The position numbers and the translations under genes are program-made. Below are positions 2,594-42,000 of a DNA stretch of 64,000 nt, piece by piece. Source of the stretch: Eledone cirrhosa. Taxonomy: Eukaryota. The DNA lies in the NCBI GenBank assembly GCA_964016885.1, contig OZ024741.1:411184001-411248000 (forward strand), read 5' to 3'. The notes under the pieces are model-generated. The model did not search any database, was not told the DNA's origin, and saw nothing but the letters and a program-made list of their open reading frames with translations. How positions within the stretch are numbered: position 1 is the first letter of the stretch; each line of letters starts with the position of its first letter.

Positions 2594-3550
2594 ACTAGAC
2601 ATGAAAAATGCGCAAGCTCAAAAGTGCCACAGAATGTTATAATAAACCTTCAAAAGTGTGGGACTAGAGTTGTTGCTAAAAAATATTGTAATCATTATAT
2701 ATCGTACATTCTGTGGCATCCTTTATAAAAATAGCTTAAACCAACGAAGCCTTTATTTTTACGCTATTTCACTTAGTTAATTCTTAAAGTGTAACATATA
2801 AAAATAAATACATCTATGTTTAATGTAATAACAGCTATAAATAATTACGTAATATTATTATCATATACTCATAGTAACAAAATAATTGTGTTGAAAATTA
2901 ATATGATGCTTATATGAACGATCAAATCTATAATGATAATTTCTTAAATATACAAAAAGTAAAATAATTTAGTTATCTATTGTTACATTTTCATAGAACT
3001 ATAATATTAACAATCGTATTGCATTATCAAATTTTTATCACTACAAACTTTCATATTGGAATTACCTTAAGCCACTTATTATTACTTCGCTTTCGTACTT
3101 TTACAGCTGTAGATATTGCGCTGTATCTTATATCTAATATCAATATCTCATGGTAATTTGCATGCAGTGTAAAATAGGTTTATTAATAACTTTAATATGA
3201 AATGTATTATACAGGGCTGCGGAGTCGGCCAACAATTGACTGGCTCCAACTCAGGATCCGATACTCCATTATTTCCTAAATTTCAGCTCCGCAGCTCTGT
3301 TATTATATTAATTAATTTATTTTATAGTTGTAAATCATATTTTTATATGTTACACTCTAAGAATTAACTAAGTGAAATAGCGTAAAAATAAAGGCTTCGT
3401 TGGTTTAAGCTATTTTTATAAAGGATGCCACAGAATGTACGATATATAATGATTACAATATTTTTTAGCAACAACTCTAGTCCCACACTTTTGAAGGTTT
3501 ATTATAACATTCTGTGGCACTTTTGAGCTTGCGCATTTTTCATGTCTAGT
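2594..3550. mobile_element. 957-bp non-autonomous element with 213-bp terminal inverted repeats (foldback/Mutator-like architecture)
   Basis: 2594-2806 (ACTAGACATGAAAAATGCGCAAGCTCAAAAGTGCC...GTAACATATAAAAATA) is the reverse complement of 3338-3550, with one mismatch seen (CTTAAAGTG vs CTTAGAGTG). The interior is AT-rich and non-coding. No clear TSD. Confidence 0.8.
3212..3299. mobile_element. 88-bp hAT-like MITE nested inside the long-TIR element
   Basis: TIRs CAGGGCTGCGGAG (3212-3224) and CTCCGCAGCTCTG (3287-3299), 12/13 match. Flanked by an 8-bp direct repeat GTATTATA (3204-3211) / TTATTATA (3300-3307), 7/8 match. An 8-bp TSD with CAG ends is typical of hAT. Confidence 0.65.
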
Positions 3551-15500: not shown

Positions 15501-16905
15501 GATATAATATATCTAGTGATATAATAATATATCTGTAGTGATAAATAATATATCTATAGTGATATACTATATCTACAGTGATATAATATATCTATAGTGA
15601 TATAATACTATATCTATAGTGATATAATAATATATCTATAGTGATATAATAACATATATCTATAGTCATATAATATATCTATAGTGATATAATAATATAT
15701 TTATAGTGATATAATAATATATCTACAGTGATATAATATATCTATAGTGATATAATAATATATTTACAGTGATATAATAATATATCTATAGTGATATAAC
15801 AACATATCTATAGTGATATAATAATATATCTATAGTGATGTAATATATCTACATTGATATAATAGTATATCTACAGTGATATAATAATATATCTATAGTG
15901 ATATAATAATATATCTATAGTGATATAATAATATATCTATAGTGATATAATAATATGTCTACAGTGATATAATAATATATCTACAGTGATATAATAATAT
16001 ATCTATAGTGATATAATAATATATCTATAGCGATATAATAATATATCATTAGTGATATAATATATGTATAGTGATATAATATATCTACAGTGATATAATA
16101 ATATATCTATAGTGATATACTATATCTATAGTGATATAATATATCTACAGTGATATAATAATATATCTATAGTAATATAACATATCTATAGTGATATAAT
16201 ATATCTATAGTGATATAATATATCTACGGTGATATAATAATATTTCTGTAGTGAAATAATAATATATCTATAGTGATATAATAATATATCTATAGTGATA
16301 TAATAATATATATATAGTGATATAATAACATATATCTACAGTGATATAATAATATATCTACAGTGATATGATAATATATCTATAGTGAAATAATAATATA
16401 TCTATAGTGATATATCTATAGTGATATAAAATATCTACAGTGAAATAATATATCTACAGTGATATAATAATATATCTATAGTGATATAATAATATATCTA
16501 CAGTGATATAATATATCTATAGTGATATAATAATATATCTATAGTGATATAACAATATAGCTACAGTGATATAATAATATATCTATAGTGATATAATAAT
16601 ATATCTATAGCGATATAATAATATATCTATAGCGATATAATAATATATCTATAGTGATATACTATATCTACAGTGATATAATAATATATCAATAGTGATA
16701 TAATATATCTAGTGATATAATAATATATCATTAGTGATATAATATATCTATAGTGATATAATATATCTATAGTGATATAATATATCTACAGTGATATAAT
16801 AAAATATCTATCGTGATATAATAATATATCTATAGTGATATACTATATCTACAGTGATATAATAATATATCTATAGTGATATAATATATCTATAGTTATA
16901 TAATA
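3551..16905. repeat. Satellite 1 AAT-type domain 1 (22-bp ATATCTAYAGTGATATAATAAT with 19-bp variants), with ~3.75-kb higher-order repeat
   Basis: Rare variants recur at regular spacing: CTAAAG at 4761/8595/12330, TATCGCG ending at 5640/9408/13165, and the CGATAG variant at 6711/10460/13997. Confidence 0.93.
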
Positions 16906-16929
16906 TAGAAACATAGGATATAACACACA

Positions 16930-18292
16930 CCATCTCTACAGTGATATAACAACAACAAGATATCTACAGTGATATAACAACAACATATGTACAGTGATAT
17001 AACAACACCAACATATCTACAGTGATATAACAACAACAACATATCTACAGTGACATAACAACAACAACATATCTATAGTGATATAACAACAACATATCTA
17101 CAGTGATATAACAACACCAACATATCTACAGTGATATAACAACAACATATCTACAGTGATATAACAACACCAACATATCTACAGTGATATAACACCAACA
17201 TATCTACAGTGATATAACAAAACCAACATATCTACAGTGATATAACACCAACATATCTACAGTGATATAACAACACCAACATATCTACAGTGATATAACA
17301 ACAACAACATATCTACAGTGATATAACAACACCAACATATCTACAGTGATATAACAACAACAACATATCTACAGTGATATAACACCAACATATCTACAGT
17401 GATATAACAACAACAACATATCTACAGTGATATAACACCAACATATCTACAGTGATATAACAACATCATATCTACAGTGATATAACAACAACAACATATC
17501 TATAGTGATATAACAACAACATATCTATAGTGATATAACAACAACATATCTACAGTGATATAACAACACCAACATATCTACAGTGATACAACAACAACAA
17601 CAACAACATATCTACCGTGATATAACAACAACAACATATCTACAGTGATATAACAACACCAACATATCTACAGTGATATAACACCAACATATCTACAGTG
17701 ATATAACAACAACATATCTACAGTGATATAACAACACCAACATATCTACAGTGATATAACACCAACATATCTACAGTGATATAACACCAACATATCTACA
17801 GTGATATAACAACAACAACAACATATCTACAGTGATATAACAACAACATATCTACAGTGATATAACAACACCAACATATCTACAGTGATATAACAACACC
17901 AACATATCTACAGTGATATAACAACAACATATCTACAGTGATATAACAACAACAACATATCTACAGTGATATAACAACAACAACATATCTACAGTGATAT
18001 AACAACAACAACATATCTACAGTGATATAACACCAACATATCTACAGTGATATAACAACAACATATCTACAGTGATATAACAACAACAACATATCTACAG
18101 TGATATAACAACACCAACATATCTACAGTGATATAACAACAACAACAACATATCTACAGTGATATAACACAAATATATCTACAGTGATATAACAACAACA
18201 TATCTACAGTGATATAACACCAACATATCTACAGTGATATAACAACAACTACATATCTACAGTGATATAACAACAACATATCAACAGTGATA
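16930..18292. repeat. Satellite 1 AAC-type domain 1 (ATATCTACAGTGATAT + (AAC/ACC)n)
   Basis: Abrupt switch of the linker from AAT to AAC/ACC after a non-monomer junction sequence. Confidence 0.95.
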
Positions 18293-21200
18293 TAATAGTA
18301 TATCTACAGTGATATAATAATATATCTATAGTGATATAATTATATATCTACAGTGATATAATAATATATCTACAGTGATATAATAATATATCTATAGTGA
18401 TATAATAATATATCTACAGTGATATAATAATATATCTACAGTGATATAATAATATATCTACAGTGATATAATAATATATCTATAGTGACATAATAATATA
18501 TCTACAGTGATATAATAATATATCTATAGTGATATAATAATATATCTACAGTGATATAATAATATATCTATAGTGATATAATAATATATCTATAGTGATA
18601 TAATAATATATCTATAGTGATATAATAATATATCTACAGTGATATAATAATATATCTATAGTGATATAATAATATATATATAGTGATATATGATATATCT
18701 ATAGTGATATAATAATATATCTATAGTGATATAATAATATATCTATAGTGATATACTATATCTACAGTGATATAATATATCTATAGTGATATAATACTAT
18801 ATCTATAGTGATATAATAATATATCTATAGTGATATAATAATATATCTACAGTGATATAATATATCTATAGTGATATAATAATATATCTATAGTGATATA
18901 ATAATATAGCTACAGTGATATAATAATATATCTATAGTGATATAATAATATATCTATAGTGATATAATAATATATCTATAGCGATATAATGATATATCAT
19001 TAGTGATATAATATATATATATAGTGATATAATATATCTACAGTGATATAATAATATATCTATAGTGATATACTATATGTACAGTGATATAATATATCTA
19101 TAGTGATATAATAATATATCTATAGTGATATAATAATATATCTATTGTGATATAATATATCTACAGTGATATAATATATCTACAGTGATATAATAATATA
19201 TCTACAGTGATATAATAATATATCTAGTGATATAATAATATATCTATAGTAAAAAAACAATATATCTATAGTAATATAATATATCTATAGTGATATAAAA
19301 TATCTATAGTGATATAATAATATATCTGTAGTGATATAATAATATATCTATAGTGATATAATAATATATCTACAGTGATATAACATATCTATAGTGATGT
19401 AATAATATATCTATAGTGATATAATAATATAGCTACAGTGATATAATAATATATCTATAGTGATATAATAATATAGCTATAGTGATATAATAATATATCT
19501 ACATTGATATAATAATATATCTACAGTGATATAATAATATATCTATAGTGATATAATAATATATCTACAGTGATATAATATATCTATAGTGATATAATAA
19601 TATATCTACAGTGACATAATATATCTATAGTGACATAATAATATATCTACAGTGATATAATAATATATCTATAGCGATATAATAATATATCTACAGTGAT
19701 ATAATAATATATCTACAGTGATATAATAATATATCTACAGTGATATAATAATATATCTAGTGATATAATAATATATCTATAGTAATATAACAATATATCT
19801 ATAGTAATATAATATATCTATAGTGATATAATATATCTATAGTGATATAATAATATATCTGTAGTGATATAATAATATATCTATAGTGATATAATAATAT
19901 ATCTATAGTGATATAATAATATATCTATAGTGATATAATAACATATATCTACAGTGATATAATAATATATCTACAGTGATATAATAATATATCTATAGTG
20001 ATATAATAATATATCTATAGTGATATAATAATATATCTACAGTGATATAATATATCTATAGTGATGTAATAATATATCTATAGTGATATAATAATATAGC
20101 TACAGTGATATAATAATATATCTATAGTGATATAATAATATATCTACATTGATATAATAATATATCTACAGTGATATAATAATATATCTATAGTGATATA
20201 ATAATATATCTACAGTGATATAATATATCTATAGTGATATAATAATATATCTACAGTGACATAATATATCTATAGTGACATAATAATATATCTACAGTGA
20301 TATAATAATATATCTATAGCGATATAATAATATATCTACAGTGATATAATAATATATCTACAGTGATATAATAATATATCTACAGTGATATAATAATATA
20401 TCTATAGTGACATTATAATATATCTATACTGATATAATAATATAGATACAGTGATATAATAATATATCTATAGTGATATAATAATATATCTATAGTGATA
20501 TAATGATATATCTATGGTGATATAATAATATATCTATAGTGATATAATAATATATCTATAGTGATATACTATATCTACAGTGATATAATATATCTATAGT
20601 GATATAATACTATATCTATAGTGATATAATAATATATCTATAGTGATATAATAACATATATCTATAGTCATATAATATATCTACAGTGATATAATATATC
20701 TACAGTGATATAATATATCTACAATGATATAATAATATATCTATAGTGATATAATAATATATCTATAGTGATATAATAATATATCTACAGTGATATAACA
20801 TATCTATAGTGATATAATAATATATCTATAGTGATATAATAATATAGCTACAGTGATATAATAATACATCTATAGTGATATAATAATATATCTATAGCGA
20901 TATAATAATATATCATTAGTGATATAATATATGTATAGTAATATAATATATCTACAGTGATATAATAATATATCTATAGTGATATACTATATGTACAGTG
21001 ATATAATATATCTATAGTGATATAATAATATATCTATAGTGATATAATAATATATCTATAGTGATATAATATATCTACAGTGATATAATATATCTACAGT
21101 GATATAATAATATATCTACAGTGATATAATAATATATCTACAGTGATATAATAATATATCTACAGTGATATAATAATATATCTATAGTAATATAACAATA

Positions 21201-21625
21201 TATCTATAGTAATATAATATATCTATAGTGATATAATATATGTACGGTGATATAATAATATATCTGTAGTGATATAATAATATATCTATAGTGATATAAT
21301 AATATATCTATAGTGATATAATAATATTTCTATAGTGATATAATAACATATATCTACAGTGATATAATAATATATCTATAGTGAAATAATAATATATCTA
21401 TAGTGATATAATAATATATCTACAGTGATATAATAATATATCTATAGTGAAATAATAATATATCTATAGTGATATAATAATATATCTAGTGATATAATAA
21501 TATATCTATAGCGATATAATAATATATCATTAGTGATATAATATATCTACAGTGATATAATAAAATATCTATAGTGATATACTATATCTACAGTGATATA
21601 ATAATATATCTATAGTTATATAATA
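18293..21625. repeat. Satellite 1 AAT-type domain 2
   Basis: Return to AATAAT linkers and mixed TATAG/TACAG cores. Confidence 0.95.
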
Positions 21626-21649
21626 TAGAAACATAGCATATAACACACA

Positions 21650-24600
21650 CCATATCTACAGTGATATAACAACAACATATCTACAGTGACATAACAACAT
21701 ATCTACAGTGATATAACAACATATCTATAGTGATATAAAAACAATAACATATCTACAGTGATATAACAAGAACAACAACATATCTACAGTGATATAACAA
21801 CATATCTACAGTGATATAACAACAACATATCTACAGTGATATAACAACAACAACATATCTACAGTGATATAACAACAACAACATATCTACAGTGATATAA
21901 CAACACCAACATATCTACAGTGATATAACAACAACAACAACATATCTACAGTGATATAACAACAACAATAACATATCTACAGTGATATAACAAGAACACC
22001 AACATATCTACAGTGATATAACAACAACAACATATCTACAGTGATATAACAACACCAACATATCTACAGTGATATAACAACAACAACAACATATCTACAG
22101 TGATATAACAACAACAACAACATATCTACAGTGATATAACAACAACAACAACATATCTACAGTGATATAACAACAACAACAACATATCTACAGTGATATA
22201 ACAACAACAACAACATATCTACAGTGATATAACAACAACAACAACATATCTACAGTGATATAACAACAACAACAACATATCTACAGTGATATAACAACAA
22301 CAACACATCTACAGTGATATAACAACAACAACATATCTACAGTGATATAACAACAACAACATATCTACAGTGATATAACAACAACAACAACAACATATCT
22401 ACAGTGATATAACAACAACAACATATCTACAGTGATATAACAACACCAACATATCTACAGTGATATAACAACACCAACATATCTACAGTGATATAACAAC
22501 ACCAACATATCTACAGTGATATAACAACACCAACATATCTACAGTGATATAACAACACCAACATATCTACAGTGATATAACAACACCAACATATCTACAG
22601 CGATATAACAACACCGACATATCTACAGTGATATAACAACAACATATCTACAGTGATATAACAACACCAACATATCTACAGTGATATAACAACAACAACA
22701 TATCTACAGTGATATAACAACAACAACATATCTACAGTGATATAACAACAACAACAACAACATATCTACAGTGACATAACAACAACAACATATCTACAGT
22801 GATATAACAACAACAACATATTTACAGTGATATAACAACAACAACAACAACATATCTACAGTGATATAACAACAACATATCTACAGTGATATATAACAAC
22901 AACATATCTACAGTGATATAACAACACCAACATATCTACAGTGATATAACAACAACATATCTACAGTGACATAACAACAACAACTTATCTACAGTGATAT
23001 AACAACACCAAAATATCTACAGTGATATAACACCAACATATCTACAGTGATATAACAACAACAACAACATATCTACAGTGATATAACAACAACAACATAT
23101 CTACAGTGGTATAACAACAACAACATATTTACAGTGATATAACAACAACAACAACAACATATCTACAGTGACATAACAACAACAACATATCTACAGTGAT
23201 ATAACAACAACAACATATCTACAGTGATATAACAACAACGACAACATTACAGTGATATAACAACACCAACATATCTACAGTGATATAACAACAACAACAT
23301 ATCTACAGTGATATAACAACAACATATCTACAGTGATATAACAACAACATATCTACAGTGATATAACAACAACATATCTACAGTGATATAACACCAACAT
23401 ATCTACAGTGATATAACACCAACATATCTACAGTGATATAACACCGACATATCTACAGTGATATAACAACAACAACATATCTACAGTGATATAACAACAA
23501 CAACATATCTACAGTGATATAACAACAACACCAACAACATATCTACAGTAATATAACAACACCAACATATCTACAGTGATATAACAACAATAACATATCT
23601 ACAGTGATATAACAACAACAACAACATATCTACAGTGATATAACAACAACAACAACATATCTACAGTGATATAACACCAATATATCTACAGTGATATAAC
23701 AACAACATATCTACAGTGATATAACAACAACATATCTACAGTGATATAACAACACCAACATTACAGTGATATAACAACACCAACATATCTACAGTGATAT
23801 AACAACAACATATCTACAGTGATATAACAACAACATATCTACAGTGATATAACAACAACATATCTACAGTGATATAACAACACCAACATATCTACAGTGA
23901 TATAACACCAACATATCTACAGTGATATAACACCACCAACATATCTACAGTGATATAACACCAACATATCTACAGTGATATAACAACAACAACATATCTA
24001 CAGTGATATAACACCAACATATCTACAGTGATATAACAACAACAACATATCTACAGTGATATAACAACAACAACATATCTACAGTGATATAACAACAACA
24101 ACATATCTACAGTGATATAACAACAACAACATATCTACAGTGATATAACAACAACAACAACATATCTACAGTGATATAACAACAACACCAACATATCTAC
24201 AGTGATATAACAACAACATATCTACAGTGACATAACAACAACAACATATCTATAGTGATATAACAACACCAACATATCTACAGTGATATAACAACACCAA
24301 CATATCTACAGTGATATAACAACAACAACAACATATCTACAGTGATATAACAACACCAACATATCTACAGTGATATAACAACAACATATCTACAGTGATA
24401 TAACACCACCAACATATCTACAGTGATATAACAACAACACCAACATATCTACAGTGATATAACAACAACATATCTACAGTGATATAACAACAACATATCT
24501 ACAATGATATAACACCACCAACATATCTACAGTGATATAACAACAACACCAACATATCTACAGTGATATAACAACAACATATCTACAGTGATATAACAAC

Positions 24601-25935
24601 AACAACATATCTACAGTGATATAACAACACCAACATATCTACAGCGATATAACAACACCAACATATCTACAGTGATATAACAACAACATATCTACAGTGA
24701 TATAACAACAACAACATATCTACAGTGATATAACACCAACATATCTACAGTGATATAACAACACCAACATATCTACAGTGATATAACAACAACAACAACA
24801 TATCTACAGTGATATAACAACAACAACATATCTACAGTGATACAACAACAACAACAACAACAACATATCTACAGTGATATAACAACACCAACATATCTAC
24901 AGTGATATAACAACAACAACATATTTACAGTGATATAACAACAACAACATATCTACAGTGATATAACAACAACATATCTACAGTGATATAACAACAACAT
25001 ATCTACAGTGATATAACAACACCAACATATCTACAGTGATATAACAACAACAACAACATATCTACAGTGATATAACAACAACAACATATCTACAGTGATA
25101 TAACAGCAACATATCTACAGTGATATAACAACACCAACATATCTACAGTGATATAACAACAACATATCTACAGTGATATAACAACAACAACAACATATCT
25201 ACAGTGATATAACAACACCAACATATCTACAGTGATATAACAACAACAACAACATATCTACAGTGATATAACAACAACAACATATCTACAGTGATATAAC
25301 AGCAACATATCTACAGTGATATAACAACACCAACATATCTACAGTGATATAACAACAACATATCTACAGTGATATAACAACAACAACATATCTACAGTGA
25401 TATAACAACACCAACATATCTACAGTGATATAACAACACCAACATATCTACAGTGATATAACAACACCAACATATCTACAGTGATATAACAACAACATAT
25501 CTATAGTGATATAACAACAACAACATATCTACAGTGATATAACACCAACATATCTACAGTGATATAACACCAACATATCTACAGTGATATAACAACAACA
25601 ACAACATATCTACAGTGATATAACAACAACACCAACATATCTACAGTGATATAACAACAACATATCTACAGTGATATAACAACAACATATCTACAGTGAT
25701 ATAACAACAACATATCTACAGTGATATAACACCACCAACATATCTACAGTGATATAACAACAACACCAACATATCTACAGTGATATAACAACAACATATC
25801 TACAGTGATATAACATCATATCTACAGTGATATAACACCATATCTACAGTGATATAACAACAACATATCTACAGTGATATAACAACAACATATCTACAGT
25901 GATATAACAACAACAACATATCTACAGTGATATAA
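21650..25935. repeat. Satellite 1 AAC-type domain 2
   Basis: ATATCTACAGTGATAT followed by 1 to about 6 AAC/ACC triplets per monomer. Confidence 0.95.
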
Positions 25936-26958: not shown

Positions 26959-26964
26959 ACTTAC
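26959..26964 (-). promoter_or_regulatory. 5' splice donor GTAAGT of the CDC23 exon
   Basis: The minus strand reads TTATATTT|GTAAGTTTTT, a perfect consensus. The TAA that ends the ORF-track ORF is part of this donor. Confidence 0.88.
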
Positions 26965-27073
26965 AAATATAAACAAAATCCATCGAGTTCCTTCTTTTGG
27001 TGCTTTTTTGATAATTCTGTCTTTAAAATTTTCACTCTTGCTAAATCATCATTTATAACTGAGGTCATACTAG
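26965..27073 (-). CDS. CDC23: Internal coding exon (109 bp, phase 1 to phase 2) of cell division cycle protein 23 / anaphase-promoting complex subunit 8
   Basis: Encodes xSMTSVINDDLARVKILKTELSKKHQKKELDGFCLY(L). This aligns to human CDC23 as recalled, LRELRVELSKKHQARELDGFGLYL(YGVVL), with ELSKKHQ..ELDGF.LYL identical. Bounded by CTAAT-GTCCTTTATTCCTACAG| and |GTAAGT. No other CDC23 exon was found in the window. Confidence 0.88.
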
Positions 27074-30000
27074 CTGTAGGAATAAAGGACATTAGCTTTA
27101 TAACTGGAGTCATACTAGCTGTAGGAATAAAGGACATTAGCTTTATAACTGGAGTCATACTAGCTGTAGGAATAAAGAGGACAGCTTTATAACTGGAGTC
27201 ATACTAGCTGTAGGAATAAAGAGGACAGCTTTATAACTGGGGTCATACTAGCTGTAGGAATAAAGAGGACAGCTATATAACTGGAGTCATACTAGCTGTA
27301 GGAATAAAGAGGACAGCTTTATAACTGGGGTCATACTAGTTGTAGGAATAAAGAGGACAGCTTTATAACTGGGGTCATACTAGCTGTAGGAATAAAGAGG
27401 ACAGCTTTATAACTGGGGTCATACTAGTTGTAGGAATAAAGAGGACAGCTTTATAACTGGGGTCATACTAGCTGTAGGAATAAAGAGGACAGCTTTATAA
27501 CTGGGGTCATACTAGCTGTAGGAATAAAGAGGACAGCTTTATAACTGGGGTCATAATAGCTGTAGGAATAAAGAGGACAGCTTTATAACTGGGGTCATAC
27601 TAGCTGTAGGAATAAAGAGGACAGCTTTATAACTGTGGTCATACTAGCTGTAGGAATAGAGAGGACAGCTTTATAACTGGGGTCATACTAGCTGTAGGAA
27701 TAAAGAGGACAGCTTTATAACTGGGGTCATACTAGCTGTAGGAATAAAGAGGACAGCTTTATAACTGGGGTCATACTATTTGTAGGAATAAAGAGGACAG
27801 CTTTATAACTGGAGTCATACTAGATGTAGGAATAAAGAGGACAGCTTTATAACTGGGGTCATACTAGTTGTAGGAATAAAGAGGACAGCTTTAAAACTGG
27901 GGTCATACTAGCTGTAGGAATAAAGAGGACAGCTTTCTAACTGGGGTCATACTGGGTGTAGGAATAAAGGACATTAGCTTTATAACTAGGGTCATACTAG
28001 CTATAGGAATAAAGAGGACAGCTTTATAACTGGGGTCATACTAGTTGTAGGAATAAAGAGGACAGCTTTATAACTGGGGTCATACTAGCTGTAGGAATAA
28101 AGAGGACAGCTTTATAACTGGGCTCATACTAGGTGTAGGAATAAAGAGGACAGCTTTATAACTGGGGTCATACTAGCTGTAGGAATAAAGAGGACAGCTT
28201 TATAACTGGGGTCATACTAGATGTAGGAATAAAGAGGACAGCTTTATAACTGGGGTCATACTAGCTGTAGGAATAAAGAGGACAGCTTTCTAACTGGGGT
28301 CATACTAGGTGTAGGAATAAAGAGGACAGCTTTATAACTGGGGTCATACTAGCTGTAGGAATAAAGAGGACAGCTTTATAACTGGGGTCATACTAGTTGT
28401 AGGAATAAAGAGGACAGCTTTAAAACTGGGGTCATACTAGCTGTAGGAATAAAGAGGACAGCTTTCTAACTGGGGTCATACTGGGTGTAGGAATAAAGAG
28501 GACAGCTTTATAACTGGGGTCATGCTAGCTGTAGGAATAAAGAGGACAGCTTTATAACTGGGGTTTTACTAGTTGTAGGAATAAAGGACATTAGCTTTAT
28601 ACCTGAGGTCATACTAGCTGTAGGAATAAAGAGGACAGCTTTATAACTGTGGTCATACTAGCTGTAGGAATAAAGAGGACAGCTTTATAACTGGGGTCAT
28701 ACTAGGTGTAGGAATAGAGAGGACAGCTTTATAACTGGGGTCATACTAGATGTAGGAATAAAGAGGACAGCTTTATAACTGGGGTCATATTAGTGTAGGA
28801 ATAGAGAGGACAGCTTTATAACTGGGGTCATACTAGCTGTAAAAATAAAGAGGACAGCTTTATAACTGGGGTCATACTAGTAGTAGGAATAGAGAGGACA
28901 GCTTTATAACTGGGGTCATACTAGCTGTAGGAATAAAGAGGACAGCTTTATAACTGGGGTCATACTAGTTGTAGGAATAAAGGACATTAGCTTTATAACT
29001 GGGGTCATACTAGATGTAGGAATAAAGAGGACAGCTTTATAACTGGGGTCATACTAGCTGTAGGAATAGAGAGGACAGCTTTATAACTGGGGTCATACTA
29101 GTTGTAGGAATAGAGAGGACAGCTTTATAACTGGGGTCATACTAGTTGTAGGAATAGAGAGGACAGCTTTATAACTGGGGTCATAATAGCTGTAGGAATA
29201 AAGGACATTAGCTTTATAACTGGGGTCATACTAGGTGTAGGAATAGAGAGGACAGCTCTATAACTGGGGTCATACTAGATGTAGGAATAAAGAGGACAGC
29301 TTTATAACTGGGGTCATACTAGCTGTAGGAATAAAGAGGACAGCTTTATAACTGGGGTCATACTAGTTGTAGGAATAGAGGGGACAGCTTTATAACTGGG
29401 GTCATAGTAGCTGTAGGAATAAAGAGGACAGCTTTATAACTGGGGTCATACTAGATGTAGGAATAAAGAGGACAGCTTTATAACTGGGGTCATACTAGTT
29501 GTAGGAATAGAGAGGACAGCTTTATAACTGGGGTCATACTAGCTGTAGGAATAAAGGACATTAGCTTTATAACTGGGGTCATACTAGCTGTAGGAATAAA
29601 GAGGACAGCTTTATAACTGGGGTCATACTAGCTGTAGGAATAAAGAGGACAGCTTTATAACTGGGGTCATACTAGCTGTAAGAATAAAGGGGACAGCTTT
29701 ATAACTGGGGTCATACTAGCTGTAGGAAGAAAGAGGACAGCTTTATAACTGGGGTCATAGTAGTGTAGGAATAGACAGGACAGCTTTATAACTGGGGTCA
29801 TAGTAGCTGTAAGAATAAAGAAGACAGATTTATAACTGGGGTCATACTAGCTGTAGGAATAAAGGACATTAGCTTTATAACTGGGGTCATACTAGCTGTA
29901 GGAATAAAGAGGACAGCTTTATAACTGGGGTCATAGTAGCTGTAGGAATAAAGAGGACAGCTTTATAACTTGGGTCATACTAGTGTAGGAATAGAGAGGA

Positions 30001-33000
30001 CAGCTTTATAACTGGGGTCATACTAGCTGTAGGAATAAAGAGGACAGCTTTCTAACTGGGGTCATACTGGGTGTAGGAATAAAGAGGACAGCTTTATAAC
30101 TGGGGTCATACTAGCTGTAGGAATAAAGAGGACAGCTTTATAACTGGGGTCATACTAGTTGTAGGAATAAAGGACATTAGCTTTATACCTGAGGTCATAC
30201 TAGCTGTAGGAATAAAGAGGACAGCTTTATAACTGTGGTCATACTAGCTGTAGGAATAAAGAGGACAGCTTAATAACTGGGGTCATACTAGCTGTAGGAA
30301 TAAAGAGGACAGCTTTCTAACTGGGGTCATACTAGATGTAGGAATAAAGAGGACAGCTTTATAACTGGGGTCATATTAGTGTAGGAATAAAGAGGACAGC
30401 TTTATAACTGGGGTCATACTAGTTGTAGGAATAAAGGACATTAGCTTTATACCTGAGGTCATACTAGCTGTAGGAATAAGGAGGACAGCTTTATAACTGG
30501 GGTCATACTAGTAGTAGGAATAGAGAGGACAGCTTTATAACTGGGGTCATACTAGCTGTAGGAATAAAGAGGACAGCTTTATAACTGGGGTCATACTAGT
30601 TGTAGGAATAAAGGACATTAGCTTTATAACTGGGGTCATACTAGATGTAGGAATAAAGAGGACAGCTTTATAACTGGGGTCATACTAGCTGTAGGAATAG
30701 AGAGGACAGCTTTATAACTGGGGTCATACTAGTTGTAGGAATAGAGAGGACAGCTTTATAACTGGGGTCATACTAGTTGTAGGAATAGAGAGGACAGCTT
30801 TATAACTGGGGTCATACTAGCTGTAGGAATAAAGGACATTAGCTTTATAACTGGGGTCATACTAGGTGTAGGAATAGAGAGGACAGCTTTATAACTGGGG
30901 TCATACTAGATGTAGGAATAAAGAGGACAGCTTTATAACTGGGGTCATACTAGCTGTAGGAATAAAGAGGACAGCTTTATAACTGGGGTCATACTAGTTG
31001 TAGGAATAGAGAGGACAGCTTTATAACTGGGGTCATAGTAGCTGTAGGAATAAAGAGGACAGCTTTATAACTGGGGTCATACTAGATGTAGGAATAAAGA
31101 GGACAGCTTTATAACTGGGGTCATACTAGTTGTAGGAATAGAGAGGACAGCTTTATAACTGGGGTCATACTAGCTGGAGGAATAAAGGACATTAGCTTTA
31201 TAACTGGGGTCATACTAGCTGTAGGAATAAAGAGGACAGCTTTATAACTGGGGTCATACTAGCTGTAGGAATAAAGAGGACAGATTTATAACTGGGGTCA
31301 TACTAGCTGTAAGAATAAAGAGGACAGCTTTATAAGTGGAGTCATACTAGGTGTAGGAATAAAGAGGACAGCTTTATAACTGGGGTCATACTAGCTGTAA
31401 GAATAAAGGGGACAGCTTTATAACTGGGGTCATACTAGCTGTAGGAAGAAAGAGGACAGCTTTATAACTGGGGTCATAGTAGTGTAGGAATAGACAGGAC
31501 AGCTTTATAACTGGGGTCATAGTAGCTGTAAGAATAAAGAGGACAGATTTATAACTGGGGTCATACTAGCTGTAGGAATAAAGGACATTAGCTTTATAAC
31601 TGGGGTCATACTAGCTGTAGGAATAAAGAGGACAGCTTTATAACTGGGGTCATAGTAGCTGTAGGAATAAAGAGGACAGCTTTATAACTTAGGTCATACT
31701 AGTGTAGGAATAGAGAGGACAGCTTTATAACTGGGGTCATACTAGCTGTAGGAATAAAGAGGACAGCTTTATAACTGGGGTCATACTAGCTGTAGGAATA
31801 AAGAGGACAGCTTTATAACTGGGGTCATACTAGTGTAGGAATAGAGAGGACAGCTTTATAACTGGGGTCATACTAGCTGTAGGAATAAAGAGGACAGCTT
31901 TATAACTGGGGTCATACTAGCTGTAGGAAGAAAGAGGACAGCTTTATTACTGGGGTCATACTAGTTGTAGGAATAAAGAGGACAGCTTTATAACTGGGGT
32001 CATACTAGTTGTAGGCATAAAGAGGACAGCTTTATAACTGGGGTCATACTAGTTGTAGGAATAAAGAGGACAGCTTTATAACTGGGGGTCATACTAGATG
32101 TAGGAATAAAGAGGACAGCTTTATAACTGGGGTCATACTAGCTGTAGGAATAAAGAGGACAGCTTTCTAACTGGGGTCATACTAGGTGTAGGAATAAAGA
32201 GGACAGCTTTATAACTGGGGTCATACTAGCTGTAGGAATAAAGAGGACAGCTTTATAACTGGGGTCATACTAGTTGTAGGAATAAAGAGGACAGATTTAT
32301 AACTGGGGTCATACTAGCTGTAGGAATAAAGAGGACAGCTTTCTAACTGAGCTCATACTAGGTGTAGGAATAAAGAGGACAGCTTTATAACTGGGGTCAT
32401 ACTAGGTGTAGGAATAAAGAGGACAGCTTTATAACTGGGGTCATACTAGTTGTAGGAATAAAGGACATTAGCTTTATACCTGAGGTCATACTAGCTATAG
32501 GAATAAAGAGGACAGCTTTATAACTGGGGTCATACTAGTTGTAGGAATAAAGAGGACAGCTTTATAACTGGGGTCATACTAGCTGTAGGAATAAAGAGGA
32601 CAGCTTTATAACTTGGGTCATACTAGTGTAGGAATAAAGGACATTAGCTTTATAACTGGGGTCATACTAGCTGTAGGAATAAAGAGGACAGCTTTATAAC
32701 TGGGGTCATAGTAGCTGTAGGAATAAAGAGGACAGCTTTATAACTTGGGTCATACTAGTGTAGGAATAGAGAGGACAGCTTTATAACTGGGGTCATACTA
32801 GCTGTAGGAATAAAGAGGACAGCTTTATAACTGGGGTCATACTAGCTGTAGGAATAAAGAGGACAGCTTTATAACTGGGGTCATACTAGTGTAGGAATAG
32901 AGAGGACAGCTTTATAACTGGGGTCATACTAGCTGTAGGAATAAAGAGGACAGCTTTATAACTGGGGTCATACTAGCTGTAGGAAGAAAGAGGACAGCTT

Positions 33001-36000
33001 TATTACTGGGGTCATACTAGTTGTAGGAATAAAGAGGACAGCTTTATAACTGGGGTCATACTAGTTGTAGGCATAAAGAGGACAGCTTTATAACTGGGGT
33101 CATACTAGTTGTAGGAATAAAGAGGACAGCTTTATAACTGGGGGTCATACTAGATGTAGGAATAAAGAGGACAGCTTTATAACTGGGGTCATACTAGCTG
33201 TAGGAATAAAGAGGACAGCTTTCTAACTGGGGTCATACTAGGTGTAGGAATAAAGAGGACAGCTTTATAACTGGGGTCATACTAGCTGTAGGAATAAAGA
33301 GGACAGCTTTATAACTGGGGTCATACTAGTTGTAGGAATAAAGAGGACAGATTTATAACTGGGGTCATACTAGCTGTAGGAATAAAGAGGACAGCTTTCT
33401 AACTGGGCTCATACTAGGTGTAGGAATAAAGAGGACAGCTTTATAACTGGGGTCATACTAGGTGTAGGAATAAAGAGGACAGCTTTATAACTGGGGTCAT
33501 ACTAGTTGTAGGAATAAAGGACATTAGCTTTATACCTGAGGTCATACTAGCTATAGGAATAAAGAGGACAGCTTTATAACTGGGGTCATACTAGTTGTAG
33601 GAATAAAGAGGACAGCTTTATAACTGGGGTCATACTAGCTGTAGGAATAAAGAGGACAGCTTTATAACTGGGCTCATACTAGGTGTAGGAATAAAGAGGA
33701 CAGCTTTATAACTGGGGTCATACTAGCTGTAGGAATAAAGAGGACAGCTTTATAACTGGGGTAATACTAGATGTAGGAATAAAGAGGACAGCTTTATAAC
33801 TGGGGTCATACTAGCTGTAGGAATAAAGAGGACAGCTTTCTAACTGGGGTCATACTAGGTGTAGGAATAAAGAGGACAGCTTTATAACTGGGGTCATACT
33901 AGCTGTAGGAATAAAGAGGACAGCTTTATAACTGGGGTCATACTAGTTGTAGGAATAAAGAGGACAGCTTTAAAACTGGGGTCATACTAGCTGTAGGAAT
34001 AAAGAGGACAGCTTTCTAACTGGGGTCATACTAGCTGTAGGAATAAAGAGGACAGCTTTATAACTGGGGTCATACTAGCTGTAGGAATAAAGAGGACAGC
34101 TTTCTAACTGGGGTCATACTAGGTGTAGGAATAAAGAGGACAGCTTTATAACTGGGGTCATACTAGCTGTAGGAATAAAGAGGACAGCTTTATAACTGGG
34201 GTCATACTAGCTGTAGGAATATAGAGGACAGCTTTATAACTGGGGTCATACTAGCTGTAGGAATAAAAAGGACAGCTTTATAACTGGGGTCATACTAGCT
34301 GTAGGCACAGGACAGCTTTATAACTGGGGTCATACTAGCTATAGGAAGAGGACAGCTTTATAACTGGGGTCATACTAGCTGTAGGAAGAGGACAGCTTTA
34401 TAACTGGGGTCATACTAGGTGTAGGAATAGAGAGGACAGCTTTATAACTGGGGTCATACTAGATGTAGGAATAAAGAGGACAGCTTTATAACTGGGGTCA
34501 TACTAGCTGTAGGAAGAAAGAGGACAGCTTTATAACTGGGGTCATAGTAGTGTAGGAATAGACAGGACAGCTTTATAACTGGGGTCATAGTAGCTGTAAG
34601 AATAAAGAGGACAGATTTATAACTGGGGTCATACTAGCTGTAGGAATAAAGGACATTAGCTTTATAACTGGGGTCATACTAGCTGTAGGAATAAAGAGGA
34701 CAGCTTTATAACTGGGGTCATAGTAGCTGTAGGAATAAAGAGGACAGCTTTATAACTTGGGTCATACTAGTGTAGGAATAGAGAGGACAGCTTTATAACT
34801 GGGGTCATACTAGCTGTAGGAATAAAGAGGACAGCTTTATAACTGGGGTCATACTAGCTGTAGGAATAAAGAGGACAGCTTTATAACTGGGGTAATACTA
34901 GCTGTAGGAATAAAGAGGACAGCTTTATAACTGGGGTCATACTAGCTGTAGGAAGAAAGAGGACAGCTTTATTACTGGGGTCATACTAGTTGTAGGAATA
35001 AAGAGGACAGCTTTATAACTGGGGTCATACTAGTTGTAGGCATAAAGAGGACAGCTTTATAACTGGGGTCATACTAGTTTTAGGAATAAAGAGGACAGCT
35101 TTATAACTGGGGTCATACTAGATGTAGGAATAAAGAGGACAGCTTTATAACTGGGGTCATACTAGCTGTAGGAATAAAGAGGACAGCTTTCTAACTGGGG
35201 TCATACTAGGTGTAGGAATAAAGAGGACAGCTTTATAACTGGGGTCATACTAGCTGTAGGAATAAAGAGGACAGCTTTATAACTGGGGTCATACTAGTTG
35301 TAGGAATAAAGAGGACAGATTTATAACTGGGGTCATACTAGCTGTAGGAATAAAGAGGACAGCTTTCTAACTGGGCTCATACTAGGTGTAGGAATAAAGA
35401 GGACAGCTTTATAACTGGGGTCATACTAGGTGTAGGAATAAAGAGGACAGCTTTATAACTGGGGTCATACTAGTTGTAGGAATAAAGGACATTAGCTTTA
35501 TACCTGAGGTCATACTAGCTATAGGAATAAAGAGGACAGCTTTATAACTGGGGTCATACTAGTTGTAGGAATAAAGAGGACAGCTTTATAACTGGGGTCA
35601 TACTAGCTGTAGGAATAAAGAGGACAGCTTTATAACTGGGCTCATACTAGGTGTAGGAATAAAGAGGACAGCTTTATAACTGGGGTCATACTAGCTGTAG
35701 GAATAAAGAGGACAGCTTTATAACTGGGGTCATACTAGATGTAGGAATAAAGAGGACAGCTTTATAACTGGGGTCATACTAGCTGTAGGAATAAAGAGGA
35801 CAGCTTTCTAACTGGGGTCATACTAGGTGTAGGAATAAAGAGGACAGCTTTATAACTGGGGTCATACTAGCTGTAGGAATAAAGAGGACAGCTTTATAAC
35901 TGGGGTCATACTAGTTGTAGGAATAAAGAGGACAGCTTTAAAACTGGGGTCATACTAGCTGTAGAAATAAAGAGGACAGCTTTCTAACTGGGGTCATACT

Positions 36001-39000
36001 GGGTGTAGGAATAAAGAGGACAGCTTTATCACTGGGGTCATGCTAGCTGTAGGAATAAAGAGGACAGCTTTATAACTGGGGTCATACTAGTTGTAGGAAT
36101 AAAGGACATTAGCTTTATACCTGAGGTCATACTAGCTGTAGGAATAAAGAGGACAGCTTTATAACTGTGGTCATACTAGCTGTAGGAATAAAGAGGACAG
36201 CTTTATAACTGGGGTCATACTAGGTGTAGGAATAAAGAGGGCAGCTTTATAACTGGGGTCATACTAGCTGTAGGAATACAGACAGCTTTATAACTGGGGT
36301 CATAGTAGCTGTAGGAATAGAGAGGACAGCTTTCTAACTGGGATCATACTAGTTGTAGGAATAAAGAGGACAGCTTTATAACTGGGGTCATACTAGCTGT
36401 AAGAATAAAGAGGACAGCTTTATAACTGGGGTCATGCTAGATGTAGGAATAGAGAGGACAGCTTTATAACTGGGGTCATACTAGCTGTAAGAATAAAGAG
36501 GACAGCTTTATAACTGAGGTCATACTAGCTGTAAGAATAAAGAGGACAGCTTTATAACTGGGGTCATACTAGCTGTAGGAATAAAGAGGACAGCTTTATA
36601 ACTGGGGTCATACTAGCTGTAGGAATAAAGAGGACAGCTTTATAACTGGGGTCATACTAGCTGTAGGAATAAAGAGGACAGCTTTATAACTGGGGTCATA
36701 CTAGTTGTAGGAATAAAGAGGACAGCTTTATAACTGGGGTCATACTAGCTGTAGGAATAAAGCGGACAGCTTTATAACTGGGGTCATACTAGCTGTAAGA
36801 ATAAAGAGGACAGCTTTATAACTGGGGTCATACTAGTTGTAGAAATAAAGAGAACAGCTTTATAACTGGGGTCATACTAGATGTAGGTATAAAGAGGACA
36901 GCTTTATAACTGGGGTCATACTAGTTGTAGGAATAAAGGGGACAGCTTTATAACTGGGGTCATACTAGTTGTAGGAATAAAGAGGACAGCTTTATAACTG
37001 GGGTCATACTAGGTGTAGGAATAAAGAGGACAGCTTTATAACTGTGGTCATACTAGCTGTAGGAATAAAGAGGACAGCTTTATAACTGAGGTCATACTAG
37101 CTGTAGTAATAAAGAGGACAGCTTTATAACTGGGGTCATACTAGCTGTAGGAATAAAGAGGACAGCTTTATAACTGGGGTCATACTAGCTGTAGGAAGAG
37201 GACAGCTTTATAACTGGGGTCATACTAGCTGTAGGAATAAAGAGGACAGCTTTATAACTGTGGTCATACAAGCTGTAGGAATAAAGAGGACAGCTTTATA
37301 ACTGGGGTCATACTAGCTGTAGGAATAAAGAAGACAGCTTTATAACTGGGGTCATAGTAGCTGTAGGAATAAAGAAGCTTTATAACTGGGGTCATACTAG
37401 CTGTAGGAATAAAGAGGACAGCTTTATAACTGGGGTCATACTAGCTGTAGGAATAAAGAGGACAGCTTTATAGCTGGGGTCATAGTAGCTGTAGGAATAA
37501 AGAGGACAGCTTTATAACTGGGGTCATAGTAGCTGTAAGAATAAAGAGGACAGCTTTATAACTGGGGTCATAGTAGCTGTAGGAATAAAGAGGACAGCTT
37601 TATAACTGGGGTCATACTAGTGTAGGAATATAAAGGACAGCTTTATAACTGGGGTCATACTAGCTGTAAGAATAAAGAGGACAGCTTTATAACTGCGGTC
37701 ATACTAGTTGTAGGAATAAAGAGGACAGCTTTATAACTGGGGTCATACTAGCTGTAGGAATAAAGAGGACAGCTTTATAACTGGGGTCATACTAGTTGTA
37801 GGAATAAAGAGGACAGCTTTATAACTGGGGTCATACTAGCTGTAGGAATAAAGAGGACAGCTTTATAACTGGGGTCATACTAGTTGTAGGAATAAAGAGG
37901 ACAGCTTTATAACTGGGGTCATACTAGCTGTAGGAATAAAGAGGACAGCTTTATAACTGGGGTCATACTAGTTGTAGGAATAAAGAGGACAGCTTTATAA
38001 CTGGAGTCATACTAGATGTAGGAATAAAGAGGACAGCTTTATAACTGGGGTCATACTAGCTGTAGGAATAAAGAGGACAGCTTTATAACTGGGCTCATAC
38101 TAGGTCTAGGAATAAAGAGGACAGCTTTATAACTGGGGTCATACTAGCTGTAGGAATAAAGAGGACAGCTTTATAACTGGGGTCATACTAGATGTAGGAA
38201 TAAAGAGGACAGCTTTATAACTGGGGTCATACTAGCTGTAGGAATAAAGAGGACAGCTTTCTAACTGGGGTCATACTAGGTGTAGGAATAAAGAGGACAG
38301 CTTTATAACTGGGGTCATACTAGCTGTAGGAATAAAGAGGACAGCTTTATAACTGGGGTCATACTAGTTGTAGGAATAAAGAGGACAGCTTTAAAACTGG
38401 GGTCATACTAGCTGTAGGAATAAAGAGGACAGCTTTCTAACTGGGGTCATACTGGGTGTAGGAATAAAGAGGACAGCTTTATAACTGGGGTCATGCTAGC
38501 TGTAGGAATAAAGAGGACAGCTTTATAACTGGGGTTTTACTAGTTGTAGGAATAAAGGACATTAGCTTTATACCTGAGGTCATACTAGGTGTAGGAATAG
38601 AGAGGACAGCTTTATAACTGGGGTCATACTAGATGTAGGAATAAAGAGGACAGCTTTATAACTGGGGTCATATTAGTGTAGGAATAGAGAGGACAGCTTT
38701 ATAACTGGGGTCATACTAGCTGTAAAAATAAAGAGGACAGCTTTATAACTGGGGTCATACTAGTAGTAGGAATAGAGAGGACAGCTTTATAACTGGGGTC
38801 ATACTAGCTGTAGGAATAAAGAGGACAGCTTTATAACTGGGGTCATACTAGTTGTAGGAATAAAGGACATTAGCTTTATAACTGGGGTCATACTAGCTGT
38901 AGGAATAAAGAGGACAGCTTTCTAACTGGGGTCATACTAGCTGTAGGAATAAAGAGGACAGCTTTATAACTGGGGTCATACTAGCTGTAGGAATAAAGAG

Positions 39001-42000
39001 GACAGCTTTCTAACTGGGGTCATACTAGGTGTAGGAATAAAGAGGACAGCTTTATAACTGGGGTCATACTAGCTGTAGGAATAAAGAGGACAGCTTTATA
39101 ACTGGGGTCATACTAGCTGTAGGAATATAGAGGACAGCTTTATAACTGGGGTCATACTAGCTGTAGGAATAAAAAGGACAGCTTTATAACTGGGGTCATA
39201 CTAGCTGTAGGCACAGGACAGCTTTATAACTGGGGTCATACTAGCTATAGGAAGAGGACAGCTTTATAACTGGGGTCATACTAGCTGTAGGAAGAGGACA
39301 GCTTTATAACTGGGGTCATACTAGGTGTAGGAATAGAGAGGACAGCTTTATAACTGGGGTCATACTAGATGTAGGAATAAAGAGGACAGCTTTATAACTG
39401 GGGTCATACTAGCTGTAGGAAGAAAGAGGACAGCTTTATAACTGGGGTCATAGTAGTGTAGGAATAGACAGGACAGCTTTATAACTGGGGTCATAGTAGC
39501 TGTAAGAATAAAGAGGACAGATTTATAACTGGGGTCATACTAGCTGTAGGAATAAAGGACATTAGCTTTATAACTGGGGTCATACTAGCTGTAGGAATAA
39601 AGAGGACAGCTTTATAACTGGGGTCATAGTAGCTGTAGGAATAAAGAGGACAGCTTTATAACTTGGGTCATACTAGTGTAGGAATAGAGAGGACAGCTTT
39701 ATAACTGGGGTCATACTAGCTGTAGGAATAAAGAGGACAGCTTTATAACTGGGGTCATACTAGCTGTAGGAATAAAGAGGACAGCTTTATAACTGGGGTA
39801 ATACTAGCTGTAGGAATAAAGAGGACAGCTTTATAACTGGGGTCATACTAGCTGTAGGAAGAAAGAGGACAGCTTTATTACTGGGGTCATACTAGTTGTA
39901 GGAATAAAGAGGACAGCTTTATAACTGGGGTCATACTAGTTGTAGGCATAAAGAGGACAGCTTTATAACTGGGGTCATACTAGTTTTAGGAATAAAGAGG
40001 ACAGCTTTATAACTGGGGTCATACTAGATGTAGGAATAAAGAGGACAGCTTTATAACTGGGGTCATACTAGCTGTAGGAATAAAGAGGACAGCTTTCTAA
40101 CTGGGGTCATACTAGGTGTAGGAATAAAGAGGACAGCTTTATAACTGGGGTCATACTAGCTGTAGGAATAAAGAGGACAGCTTTATAACTGGGGTCATAC
40201 TAGTTGTAGGAATAAAGAGGACAGATTTATAACTGGGGTCATACTAGCTGTAGGAATAAAGAGGACAGCTTTCTAACTGGGCTCATACTAGGTGTAGGAA
40301 TAAAGAGGACAGCTTTATAACTGGGGTCATACTAGGTGTAGGAATAAAGAGGACAGCTTTATAACTGGGGTCATACTAGTTGTAGGAATAAAGGACATTA
40401 GCTTTATACCTGAGGTCATACTAGCTATAGGAATAAAGAGGACAGCTTTATAACTGGGGTCATACTAGTTGTAGGAATAAAGAGGACAGCTTTATAACTG
40501 GGGTCATACTAGCTGTAGGAATAAAGAGGACAGCTTTATAACTGGGCTCATACTAGGTGTAGGAATAAAGAGGACAGCTTTATAACTGGGGTCATACTAG
40601 CTGTAGGAATAAAGAGGACAGCTTTATAACTGGGGTCATACTAGATGTAGGAATAAAGAGGACAGCTTTATAACTGGGGTCATACTAGCTGTAGGAATAA
40701 AGAGGACAGCTTTCTAACTGGGGTCATACTAGGTGTAGGAATAAAGAGGACAGCTTTATAACTGGGGTCATACTAGCTGTAGGAATAAAGAGGACAGCTT
40801 TATAACTGGGGTCATACTAGTTGTAGGAATAAAGAGGACAGCTTTAAAACTGGGGTCATACTAGCTGTAGAAATAAAGAGGACAGCTTTCTAACTGGGGT
40901 CATACTGGGTGTAGGAATAAAGAGGACAGCTTTATCACTGGGGTCATGCTAGCTGTAGGAATAAAGAGGACAGCTTTATAACTGGGGTCATACTAGTTGT
41001 AGGAATAAAGGACATTAGCTTTATACCTGAGGTCATACTAGCTGTAGGAATAAAGAGGACAGCTTTATAACTGTGGTCATACTAGCTGTAGGAATAAAGA
41101 GGACAGCTTTATAACTGGGGTCATACTAGGTGTAGGAATAAAGAGGGCAGCTTTATAACTGGGGTCATACTAGCTGTAGGAATACAGACAGCTTTATAAC
41201 TGGGGTCATAGTAGCTGTAGGAATAGAGAGGACAGCTTTCTAACTGGGATCATACTAGTTGTAGGAATAAAGAGGACAGCTTTATAACTGGGGTCATACT
41301 AGCTGTAAGAATAAAGAGGACAGCTTTATAACTGGGGTCATGCTAGATGTAGGAATAGAGAGGACAGCTTTATAACTGGGGTCATACTAGCTGTAAGAAT
41401 AAAGAGGACAGCTTTATAACTGAGGTCATACTAGCTGTAAGAATAAAGAGGACAGCTTTATAACTGGGGTCATACTAGCTGTAGGAATAAAGAGGACAGC
41501 TTTATAACTGGGGTCATACTAGCTGTAGGAATAAAGAGGACAGCTTTATAACTGGGGTCATACTAGCTGTAGGAATAAAGAGGACAGCTTTATAACTGGG
41601 GTCATACTAGTTGTAGGAATAAAGAGGACAGCTTTATAACTGGGGTCATACTAGCTGTAGGAATAAAGCGGACAGCTTTATAACTGGGGTCATACTAGCT
41701 GTAAGAATAAAGAGGACAGCTTTATAACTGGGGTCATACTAGTTGTAGAAATAAAGAGAACAGCTTTATAACTGGGGTCATACTAGATGTAGGTATAAAG
41801 AGGACAGCTTTATAACTGGGGTCATACTAGTTGTAGGAATAAAGGGGACAGCTTTATAACTGGGGTCATACTAGTTGTAGGAATAAAGAGGACAGCTTTA
41901 TAACTGGGGTCATACTAGGTGTAGGAATAAAGAGGACAGCTTTATAACTGTGGTCATACTAGCTGTAGGAATAAAGAGGACAGCTTTATAACTGAGGTCA

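What the first reader, a model, noticed from the sequence alone, without database searches (positions are those of the whole stretch)
27074..27207. Branch-point-bearing 45-bp monomers sit next to the exon; the dominant 44-bp monomer has lost the branch point
Seen: the two exon-proximal units (27074-27118, 27119-27163) are 45 bp with CTAAT. From 27164 onward the majority type replaces GCTAATGTCCTTT with GCTGTCCTCTTT, with no CTAAT. CTAAT units recur only sporadically further into the array. Many of those have a broken AG (e.g. about 27955, 28573, 28979, 30169), though some are intact (about 29200, 29543, 29851). Inference: the ancestral fully functional unit is retained at the exon, while a disarmed derivative is the one that was free to expand.
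Basis: partly seen in the sequence, partly recalled or inferred. Interest (0 to 1): 0.72.

Follow-up and report, generated by a model that had tools for sequence, protein, structure and literature searches.

The report
Giant splice-acceptor repeat in octopod CDC23
A 45-base piece spanning the end of an intron and the start of an exon in an octopus-type cell-division gene (CDC23) is repeated about 900 times, mostly as a 44-base variant that has lost a likely branch-point motif, but exact copies of the real splice signal persist deep in the array, so it is likely a tolerated repeat of a known kind rather than a set of decoys disarmed by selection.

Summary
Observation confirmed. The window holds exon 4 of the only CDC23/APC8 gene of an octopod. 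Its upstream intron (40.1 kb) is a 902-unit array of the exon's own acceptor plus 22 exon bases. The two exon-proximal units are 45 bp with CTAAT; 843 units are a CTAAT-less 44-bp type.

The requested 2x2 shows naive depletion (25:34 vs 506:337, p=0.009). It vanishes on distinct units (p=0.77), because 27 of the 32 main broken CTAAT units are one amplified lineage. Against 'disarming': 23 decoys keep the genuine acceptor letter for letter, the nearest five keep AG, and the next intron's acceptor array keeps AG in 3188 of 3353 units. Most real acceptors of the gene lack CTRAY.

This is a very large 'mirage' (lancelet) or exon-stuttering (chicken) repeat, with ancestral units at both edges. The scan found this kind before in many other genes of this genome.

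One unexplained point: the decoy -1 G is 41% changed, with all four alternative states common, seen at 0 of 2321 control positions. No RNA data; splicing is untested.

The parts
26965..27073 (-). CDC23/APC8 coding exon 4 (109 nt, phase 1 to phase 2)
   Evidence: PDB match to human CDC23 residues 152-173, E=0.0014; 97% identical to the O. bimaculoides protein over this exon; junction residues conserved in octopods
26959..26964 (-). Donor of exon 4 (GTAAGT)
   Evidence: sequence; exon mapping
27052..27096 (-). Unit 0: genuine acceptor (AG at 27075-27074, CTAAT at 27095-27091, putative branch A at -19) plus the first 22 exon bases; source of the array
   Evidence: use as the acceptor is inferred from orthologous proteins
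27097..27141 (-). Unit 1: 45-bp decoy with CTAAT and intact AG; its use would add 45 nt in frame without a stop
27142..27185 (-). Unit 2: first 44-bp unit (no CTAAT), AG intact; its use would add 90 nt in frame; from unit 3 on, use shifts the frame or brings stops
27052..64000 (-). 44/45-bp acceptor-junction minisatellite; 902 units in all, ending at window-equivalent 66625 and filling about 98% of the 40,138-nt intron 3; -1 G changed in about 41% of units
55401..55445 (-). Distal unit identical over 45 bp to the genuine unit 0 (others at 57592, 59256, 60572 and, past the window, 66232)
3550..25935 (-). Part of a second array (19-31 bp units) in intron 4 (86,641 nt) that runs into the acceptor of exon 5 and carries units with the exon-5 start; AG intact in 3188 of 3353 units

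Best explanation
A 45-bp piece holding the acceptor and first 22 bases of exon 4 of an octopod CDC23 gene is repeated 902 times through the upstream intron, and the copies are likely tolerated passengers that the spliceosome likely skips because only the last acceptor lies near a donor. Shown: the unit's origin, the two unit types, 45-bp units at both ends and scattered inside, block duplications of up to 4.9 kb, and persistent exact acceptor copies. Inferred: an early unit lost AAT and gained 2 nt; the AAT loss also completes a predicted 6-bp hairpin with the acceptor, so it may have been templated by it. This 44-bp lineage then spread by ordinary unequal exchange, while boundary units escaped homogenisation and unit 0 is held by the exon. 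The deficit of CTAAT+AG units is inferred to be hitchhiking of one G>A lineage. The four-allele -1 G is most likely a DNA-level hot spot or chance, not splicing selection; its cause is not shown.
For: Gene and junction. Clonal structure: 27 of 32 CTAAT units with CAA share one upstream flank; the 2x2 on distinct units gives p=0.77; 111 consecutive units are duplicated at 34013/38919. Armed decoys persist: 23 with the exact 23-nt acceptor, including the nearest one and two near the far end; 889 of 902 units keep the -2/-1 AG or the +3/+4 AG. Broken AGs are not enriched near the exon: 5 of 5, 14 of 20 and 27 of 50 intact vs 531 of 902 overall. No GTRAG donor lies anywhere in the array. Other acceptor arrays keep AG: 3188 of 3353; 40 of 41, 24 of 24, 8 of 8 and, in an acceptor-like array not seen to abut an exon, 551 of 658. 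The -2 A is changed in only 5 of 902 units, all already broken at -1. Mirages are reported to splice normally, keep boundary units out of homogenisation and retain AG in many but not all repeats (PMC3087553). Identical F7 pseudo-donors are functional yet silent (PMC1557585 abstract).
Against: The -1 G is the most variable position: 371 of 897 units changed (A 182, C 94, T 57, deletion 38). Four alternative states at 3% or more occur at 0 of 2321 positions in 53 control arrays, three or more at 9. Five of the 10 commonest variant alleles hit the G of an AG. The 2x2 keeps OR about 0.5 with p 0.02-0.05 when units are collapsed by neighbouring context rather than by sequence. The 44-bp change both removes CTAAT and is predicted to bury the AG in a stem (unpaired probability about 0 vs 0.86 at -2 for the real site), as disarming would predict. 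An AGCT hot spot did not replicate (2 of 8 vs 65 of 413, p=0.37), and the stem partner of -1 G is invariant (2 of 843), so no DNA mechanism is shown. Two earlier scan notes report acceptor arrays lacking AG throughout (not checked here). There is no RNA evidence for this species.
Confidence: 0.62

Rival explanations
1. Selection against working decoy acceptors: alleles carrying many armed acceptors mis-splice an essential gene, so variants that remove the branch motif, bury the AG in a hairpin or break the -1 G are the ones that expand.
For: 843 of 902 units lack CTAAT. The -1 G has four common alternative states, unmatched in 2321 control positions, and the next AG's G (+4) is also among the more variable sites at 8%. 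The 44-bp unit is predicted to pair the AG. Naive 2x2 OR 0.49, p=0.009.
Against: The -2 A is almost never hit, although A/T sites vary less in controls (3% or more variable: 25% of A/T vs 45% of G/C positions). The nearest decoys are armed, and exact acceptors were themselves multiplied. Replicate acceptor arrays keep AG. Breaking -1 G also opens the hairpin that would hide the site. Most real acceptors of this gene lack CTRAY.
Confidence: 0.2
2. Frame buffer: the two 45-bp units next to the exon are kept because slips to acceptors 1 and 2 add 15 or 30 residues in frame (harmless or used isoforms), whereas 44-bp units there would shift the frame.
For: Use of acceptor 1 or 2 gives +45 or +90 nt without stops; from acceptor 3 on there are frameshifts or stops. 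The three replicate arrays that abut exons with units of 48, 45 and 57 bp (all multiples of 3) keep AG almost fully.
Against: The edge effect alone predicts ancestral units at the boundary, and 45-bp armed units also sit near the far end (66232, 66493). The 22-bp exon-5 array is out of frame yet keeps AG. No transcript data.
Confidence: 0.12
3. The array is a functional splicing device (recursive steps or micro-exons) that helps remove a 40-kb intron.
For: 37 units carry CAG|GTATAA 15 nt after the acceptor position, 35 of them with an intact YAG, a possible 15-nt in-frame micro-exon or AG|GT site.
Against: No GTRAG in the array. The GT variant belongs to two or three amplified lineages. The 86.6-kb next intron and other introns hold unrelated arrays.
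Confidence: 0.04

Closest known systems
Amphioxus 'mirage' minisatellites (Adh3, globins BflGb6/BflGb9, troponin C, PGBD5); PMC3087553 section 16 read, PMC3902484 one passage
   Same: Tandem copies of the 3' end of an intron plus the 5' part of the next exon; many but not all units keep AG; boundary units differ from the homogenised interior.
   Different: 902 units over 39.6 kb vs 3-6 units for BflGb6; two adjacent introns both carry acceptor arrays; a four-allele polymorphism at the AG G; normal splicing was shown by RT-PCR in lancelet but is untested here.
Avian exon stuttering on dot chromosomes (Hron et al. 2026, PMC12954441; abstract, 12 passages and first part of the discussion read)
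   Same: Local expansion of an exon edge with its splice site into the adjacent intron; each intron carries its own repeat.
   Different: 1-44 copies (median 4) and spans up to 23.6 kb there vs 902 copies and 39.6 kb here; a mollusc, with an array of about 40% GC; length variation between individuals untested here.
Human F7 intron 7 37-bp VNTR with pseudo-donors (PMC1557585; abstract and outline only)
   Same: Repeat spans the exon-intron boundary, so the real site is flanked by identical decoys; there the decoys are functional yet not chosen.
   Different: Donor rather than acceptor; few copies; selection there is explained by scanning, which for acceptors is not tested here.

Membership tests
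Mirage minisatellite | Tandem repeat whose unit spans an exon-intron boundary | tested here: met
   Unit = 23 nt acceptor + 22 nt exon start
Mirage minisatellite | Many but not all units keep the splice dinucleotide | tested here: met
   531 of 902 units keep AG
Mirage minisatellite | Concerted evolution inside, boundary units excluded from homogenisation | tested here: met
   45-bp armed units at indices 0, 1, 893 and 899 of 902, interior 93% 44-bp type, block duplications; 45-bp units also lie inside, so the contrast is not absolute
Mirage minisatellite | Normal mRNA splicing despite the decoys | not testable with these tools
   No RNA holder listed; only orthologous proteins fix the junction
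Mirage minisatellite | Length instability between haplotypes or in the soma | not testable with these tools
   One assembly; contigs of one sample do not span the array
Exon stuttering (avian) | Source lies at the border of the adjacent exon | tested here: met
Exon stuttering (avian) | Strictly local repeat, not dispersed | tested here: inconclusive
   Genome search not scored; the unit was not among the arrays listed from 120 sampled pieces; no look-alike in the scan index
Exon stuttering (avian) | GC-rich avian dot-chromosome location | tested here: not met
   Octopod, about 5 Mb from the end of a 416-Mb contig, array about 40% GC
Recursive splice sites (features recalled) | AG|GT with a strong donor and acceptor, used in lariat or nascent RNA | tested here: inconclusive
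   37 CAG|GTATAA units, no GTRAG; use not testable

The most novel reading that the evidence does not exclude
Selection on splicing fidelity sculpts the mutation spectrum of a satellite: the G of the decoy acceptor AG is the only position in 54 arrays examined with all four alternative states common, and the dominant unit both dropped the branch motif and hides its AG in a hairpin. Octopod mirages would then be natural saturation-mutagenesis experiments that record how decoy 3' splice sites are purged.
Probability: 0.18. Interest if true: 0.68.

Novelty: new member of a known kind. Interest (0 to 1): 0.3.

Why it matters
An essential single-copy cell-cycle gene carries about 530 AG-intact look-alike acceptors before exon 4 and about 3,200 before exon 5, 23 of the former identical to the real site. 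It is therefore a strong natural test of how a 3' splice site is chosen in a giant intron. If the -1 G excess proves general across octopod mirages, it would be direct evidence that splicing shapes satellite evolution; on present evidence it is one locus. The repeat kind itself is published, and the scan has noted it in many other genes of this genome.

Tried and rejected
RNA: no RNA holder listed. Contigs of one DNA sample gave no variant table at -1; they show both unit types, with a 45-bp insertion at depth 152 vs about 2,000-3,000 for 44-bp pieces.

Search for the unit elsewhere in the genome was not scored. Pfam found nothing for the 35-aa exon.

AGCT as a general hot spot: suggestive in the first set (5 of 14 vs 67 of 418 G/C sites at least 10% variable, p=0.066), not replicated in the held-out set (2 of 8 vs 65 of 413, p=0.37), pooled p=0.052. 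Seven duplicate-family arrays were dropped before that count. Not established.

Hairpin-breaking as the cause of the -1 excess: the partner base is changed in 2 of 843; not supported. mRNA-templated conversion (the A and deletion alleles resemble the spliced junction): those units rarely carry the true-exon +12 allele (1 of 220); rejected.

Replicate arrays named in earlier notes (fasciclin, NEDD4) were not found in the stretches fetched. Among 101 sampled Pfam exon matches (60, 41; some overlap), none clearly had a repeat spanning the acceptor; L072 and L075 were not resolved.

Six paper searches listed no paper on cephalopod mirages or on AG loss in such arrays; only listings and abstract starts were seen for most. 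The supplement of PMC3087553 (alignment of mirage units) was not opened and may bear on AG loss.

Full report
Host gene. The 35 codons after the array match human CDC23 residues 152-173 (E=0.0014). The upstream exon is 95% identical to Octopus bimaculoides CDC23, so the genome is an octopod's. Mapping with octopus proteins gives one CDC23 gene of 14 coding exons on the minus strand over about 256 kb, near one end of a 416-Mb contig. Exon 4 is window 27073-26965. Octopod orthologues read S-F-T-S-M across the junction, which fits a phase-1 donor at the end of exon 3 joined to the AG at 27075-27074. Actual use of this site in this species is inferred; no RNA holder was listed.

The array. Intron 3 is 40,138 nt, and 39.6 kb of it is a tandem repeat. 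The unit is 23 nt of the acceptor plus the first 22 nt of exon 4. Segmentation gives 902 units, 59 with CTAAT and 843 without. The 44-bp type arises from loss of AAT and gain of 2 nt. It keeps weaker nTnAY motifs at -27 and -36. ViennaRNA predicts that the AAT loss completes a 6-bp stem with the acceptor, so the AG is paired in 44-bp units but partly open at the real site.

CTAAT units: 25 AG-intact, 34 broken. Others: 506 intact, 337 broken. OR 0.49, p=0.009. The units are not independent. 32 of the 34 breaks are the same G>A, and 27 of those 32 share one diagnostic upstream flank. A block of 111 units is duplicated. On distinct unit sequences the table is 6:6 vs 73:58 (p=0.77); collapsed by neighbour context, p is 0.02-0.05. 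Unit type is also associated at p<0.05 with 4 of 6 common alleles unrelated to the -1 position, and the other three kinds of break are rarer in CTAAT units (2 of 59 vs 187 of 843). The depletion is therefore not distinguishable from hitchhiking.

Other tests of disarming. 23 decoys keep the genuine 23-nt acceptor, and five are identical to the real unit over 45 bp, 28-39 kb away. The nearest decoy is fully armed and the first five keep AG. Armed 45-bp units also stand near the far end, as expected if boundaries escape homogenisation, which PMC3087553 describes for lancelet mirages. Only 3 of the gene's 13 real acceptors have CTRAY with the A at -15 to -45; two more lie just outside at -14 (read from the printed sequence) and -47. 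The next intron (86,641 nt) holds a second array that runs into the exon-5 acceptor and includes units with the exon-5 start. It keeps AG in 3188 of 3353 units. Acceptor arrays in three other genes, located from earlier scan notes, keep AG in 40 of 41, 24 of 24 and 8 of 8 units, and an acceptor-like 41-bp array in 551 of 658. Armed acceptors can thus expand in this genome.

What remains odd. The -1 G is changed in 371 of 897 units (A 182, C 94, T 57, deletion 38), while the median position varies 1.7%. In 53 control arrays (2321 positions), none has four alternative states at 3% or more and 9 have three; 28 of the 53 have some position at least 40% variable, so only the number of states is unusual. 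Against splicing selection: the -2 A is changed in 5 of 902 units, all already broken; 889 of 902 units keep one of two neighbouring AGs; broken units are not enriched near the exon; and replicates show nothing similar. DNA-level explanations I could test also failed: AGCT context did not replicate, the stem partner is invariant and mRNA-templated conversion is not supported. Intact and broken units alternate more than by chance (503 runs vs 438 expected, z=4.5). My split for the cause: DNA hot spot or structure 0.45, chance 0.3, splicing selection 0.25.

Likely working. From established knowledge of exon definition (recalled), an acceptor needs a donor within a few hundred bases. The array has no GTRAG, so only the first few decoys could compete. 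Use of decoys 1 and 2 would add 15 or 30 residues in frame; from decoy 3 on, use would shift the frame or bring stops. The array is most likely a tolerated passenger whose 44-bp lineage spread by ordinary repeat turnover.

Relation to known kinds. It meets the three sequence-level features of a mirage that could be tested; normal splicing and length instability could not be tested. It works like avian exon stuttering (1-44 copies, PMC12954441) but is not on a GC-rich dot chromosome. The mirage name and the papers came from earlier scan notes and were then read as stated under Closest known systems. Six searches listed no paper on cephalopod mirages. The scan has already noted many such arrays in this genome.

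Verdict. Observation confirmed; interpretation partly supported (ancestral edge unit yes, selective disarming not shown); new, very large member of a known kind; interest 0.30.

Noticed in passing
window 3550-25935 and G000:C2:411124320-411209935: A second acceptor-abutting array (19-31 bp units, over 3,300 copies) fills most of the 86.6-kb intron 4. Its far-end units carry the exon-5 start, so two consecutive CDC23 acceptors seeded arrays.
   Followed up: partly
G000:C2:411125168-411128918: A 3.75-kb non-repeat insertion interrupts the exon-5 array about 850 bp from the exon; it reads like an antisense LINE (recalled resemblance, not tested).
   Followed up: no
window 28596, 30182, 30446 and 34 more units: 37 units carry CAG|GTATAA 15 nt after the acceptor position, 35 directly before a CTAAT unit: possible 15-nt in-frame micro-exon or AG|GT site.
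   Followed up: partly
G000:C2:411292590-411319800 (L021, L022, L095, L096): A 27-kb telomere-like 22-bp array upstream of CDC23, not abutting an exon, whose most variable base is also the G of AGCT (33-53% changed, two to three states).
   Followed up: partly
G000:C2:411051397-411117076: 49-bp (598 copies) and 48-bp (710 copies) arrays fill two further CDC23 introns, ending about 40 and 230 bases before acceptors; the 49-bp family recurs at L165.
   Followed up: no
L325 (G000:C9, about 11567893-11568198): A 65-bp repeat of about 4.7 copies in the UBE3C-like gene contains what looks like an exon end plus donor: a possible donor mirage.
   Followed up: no
L171 (C2) and L218 (C28); L180 and window-equivalent 67707-69825: The same 64/65-bp and 37-bp satellite families occur at distant places, so some arrays in this genome are dispersed rather than local.
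   Followed up: no
window about 800-1200, + strand: Broken reading frame resembling the C-terminal part of a CR1/L2-type reverse transcriptase (resemblance recalled, not searched).
   Followed up: no
P0002 residues 265-300: The O. bimaculoides CDC23 model appears to miss exon 7 and read through intron sequence, unlike P0009 and P0011.
   Followed up: no
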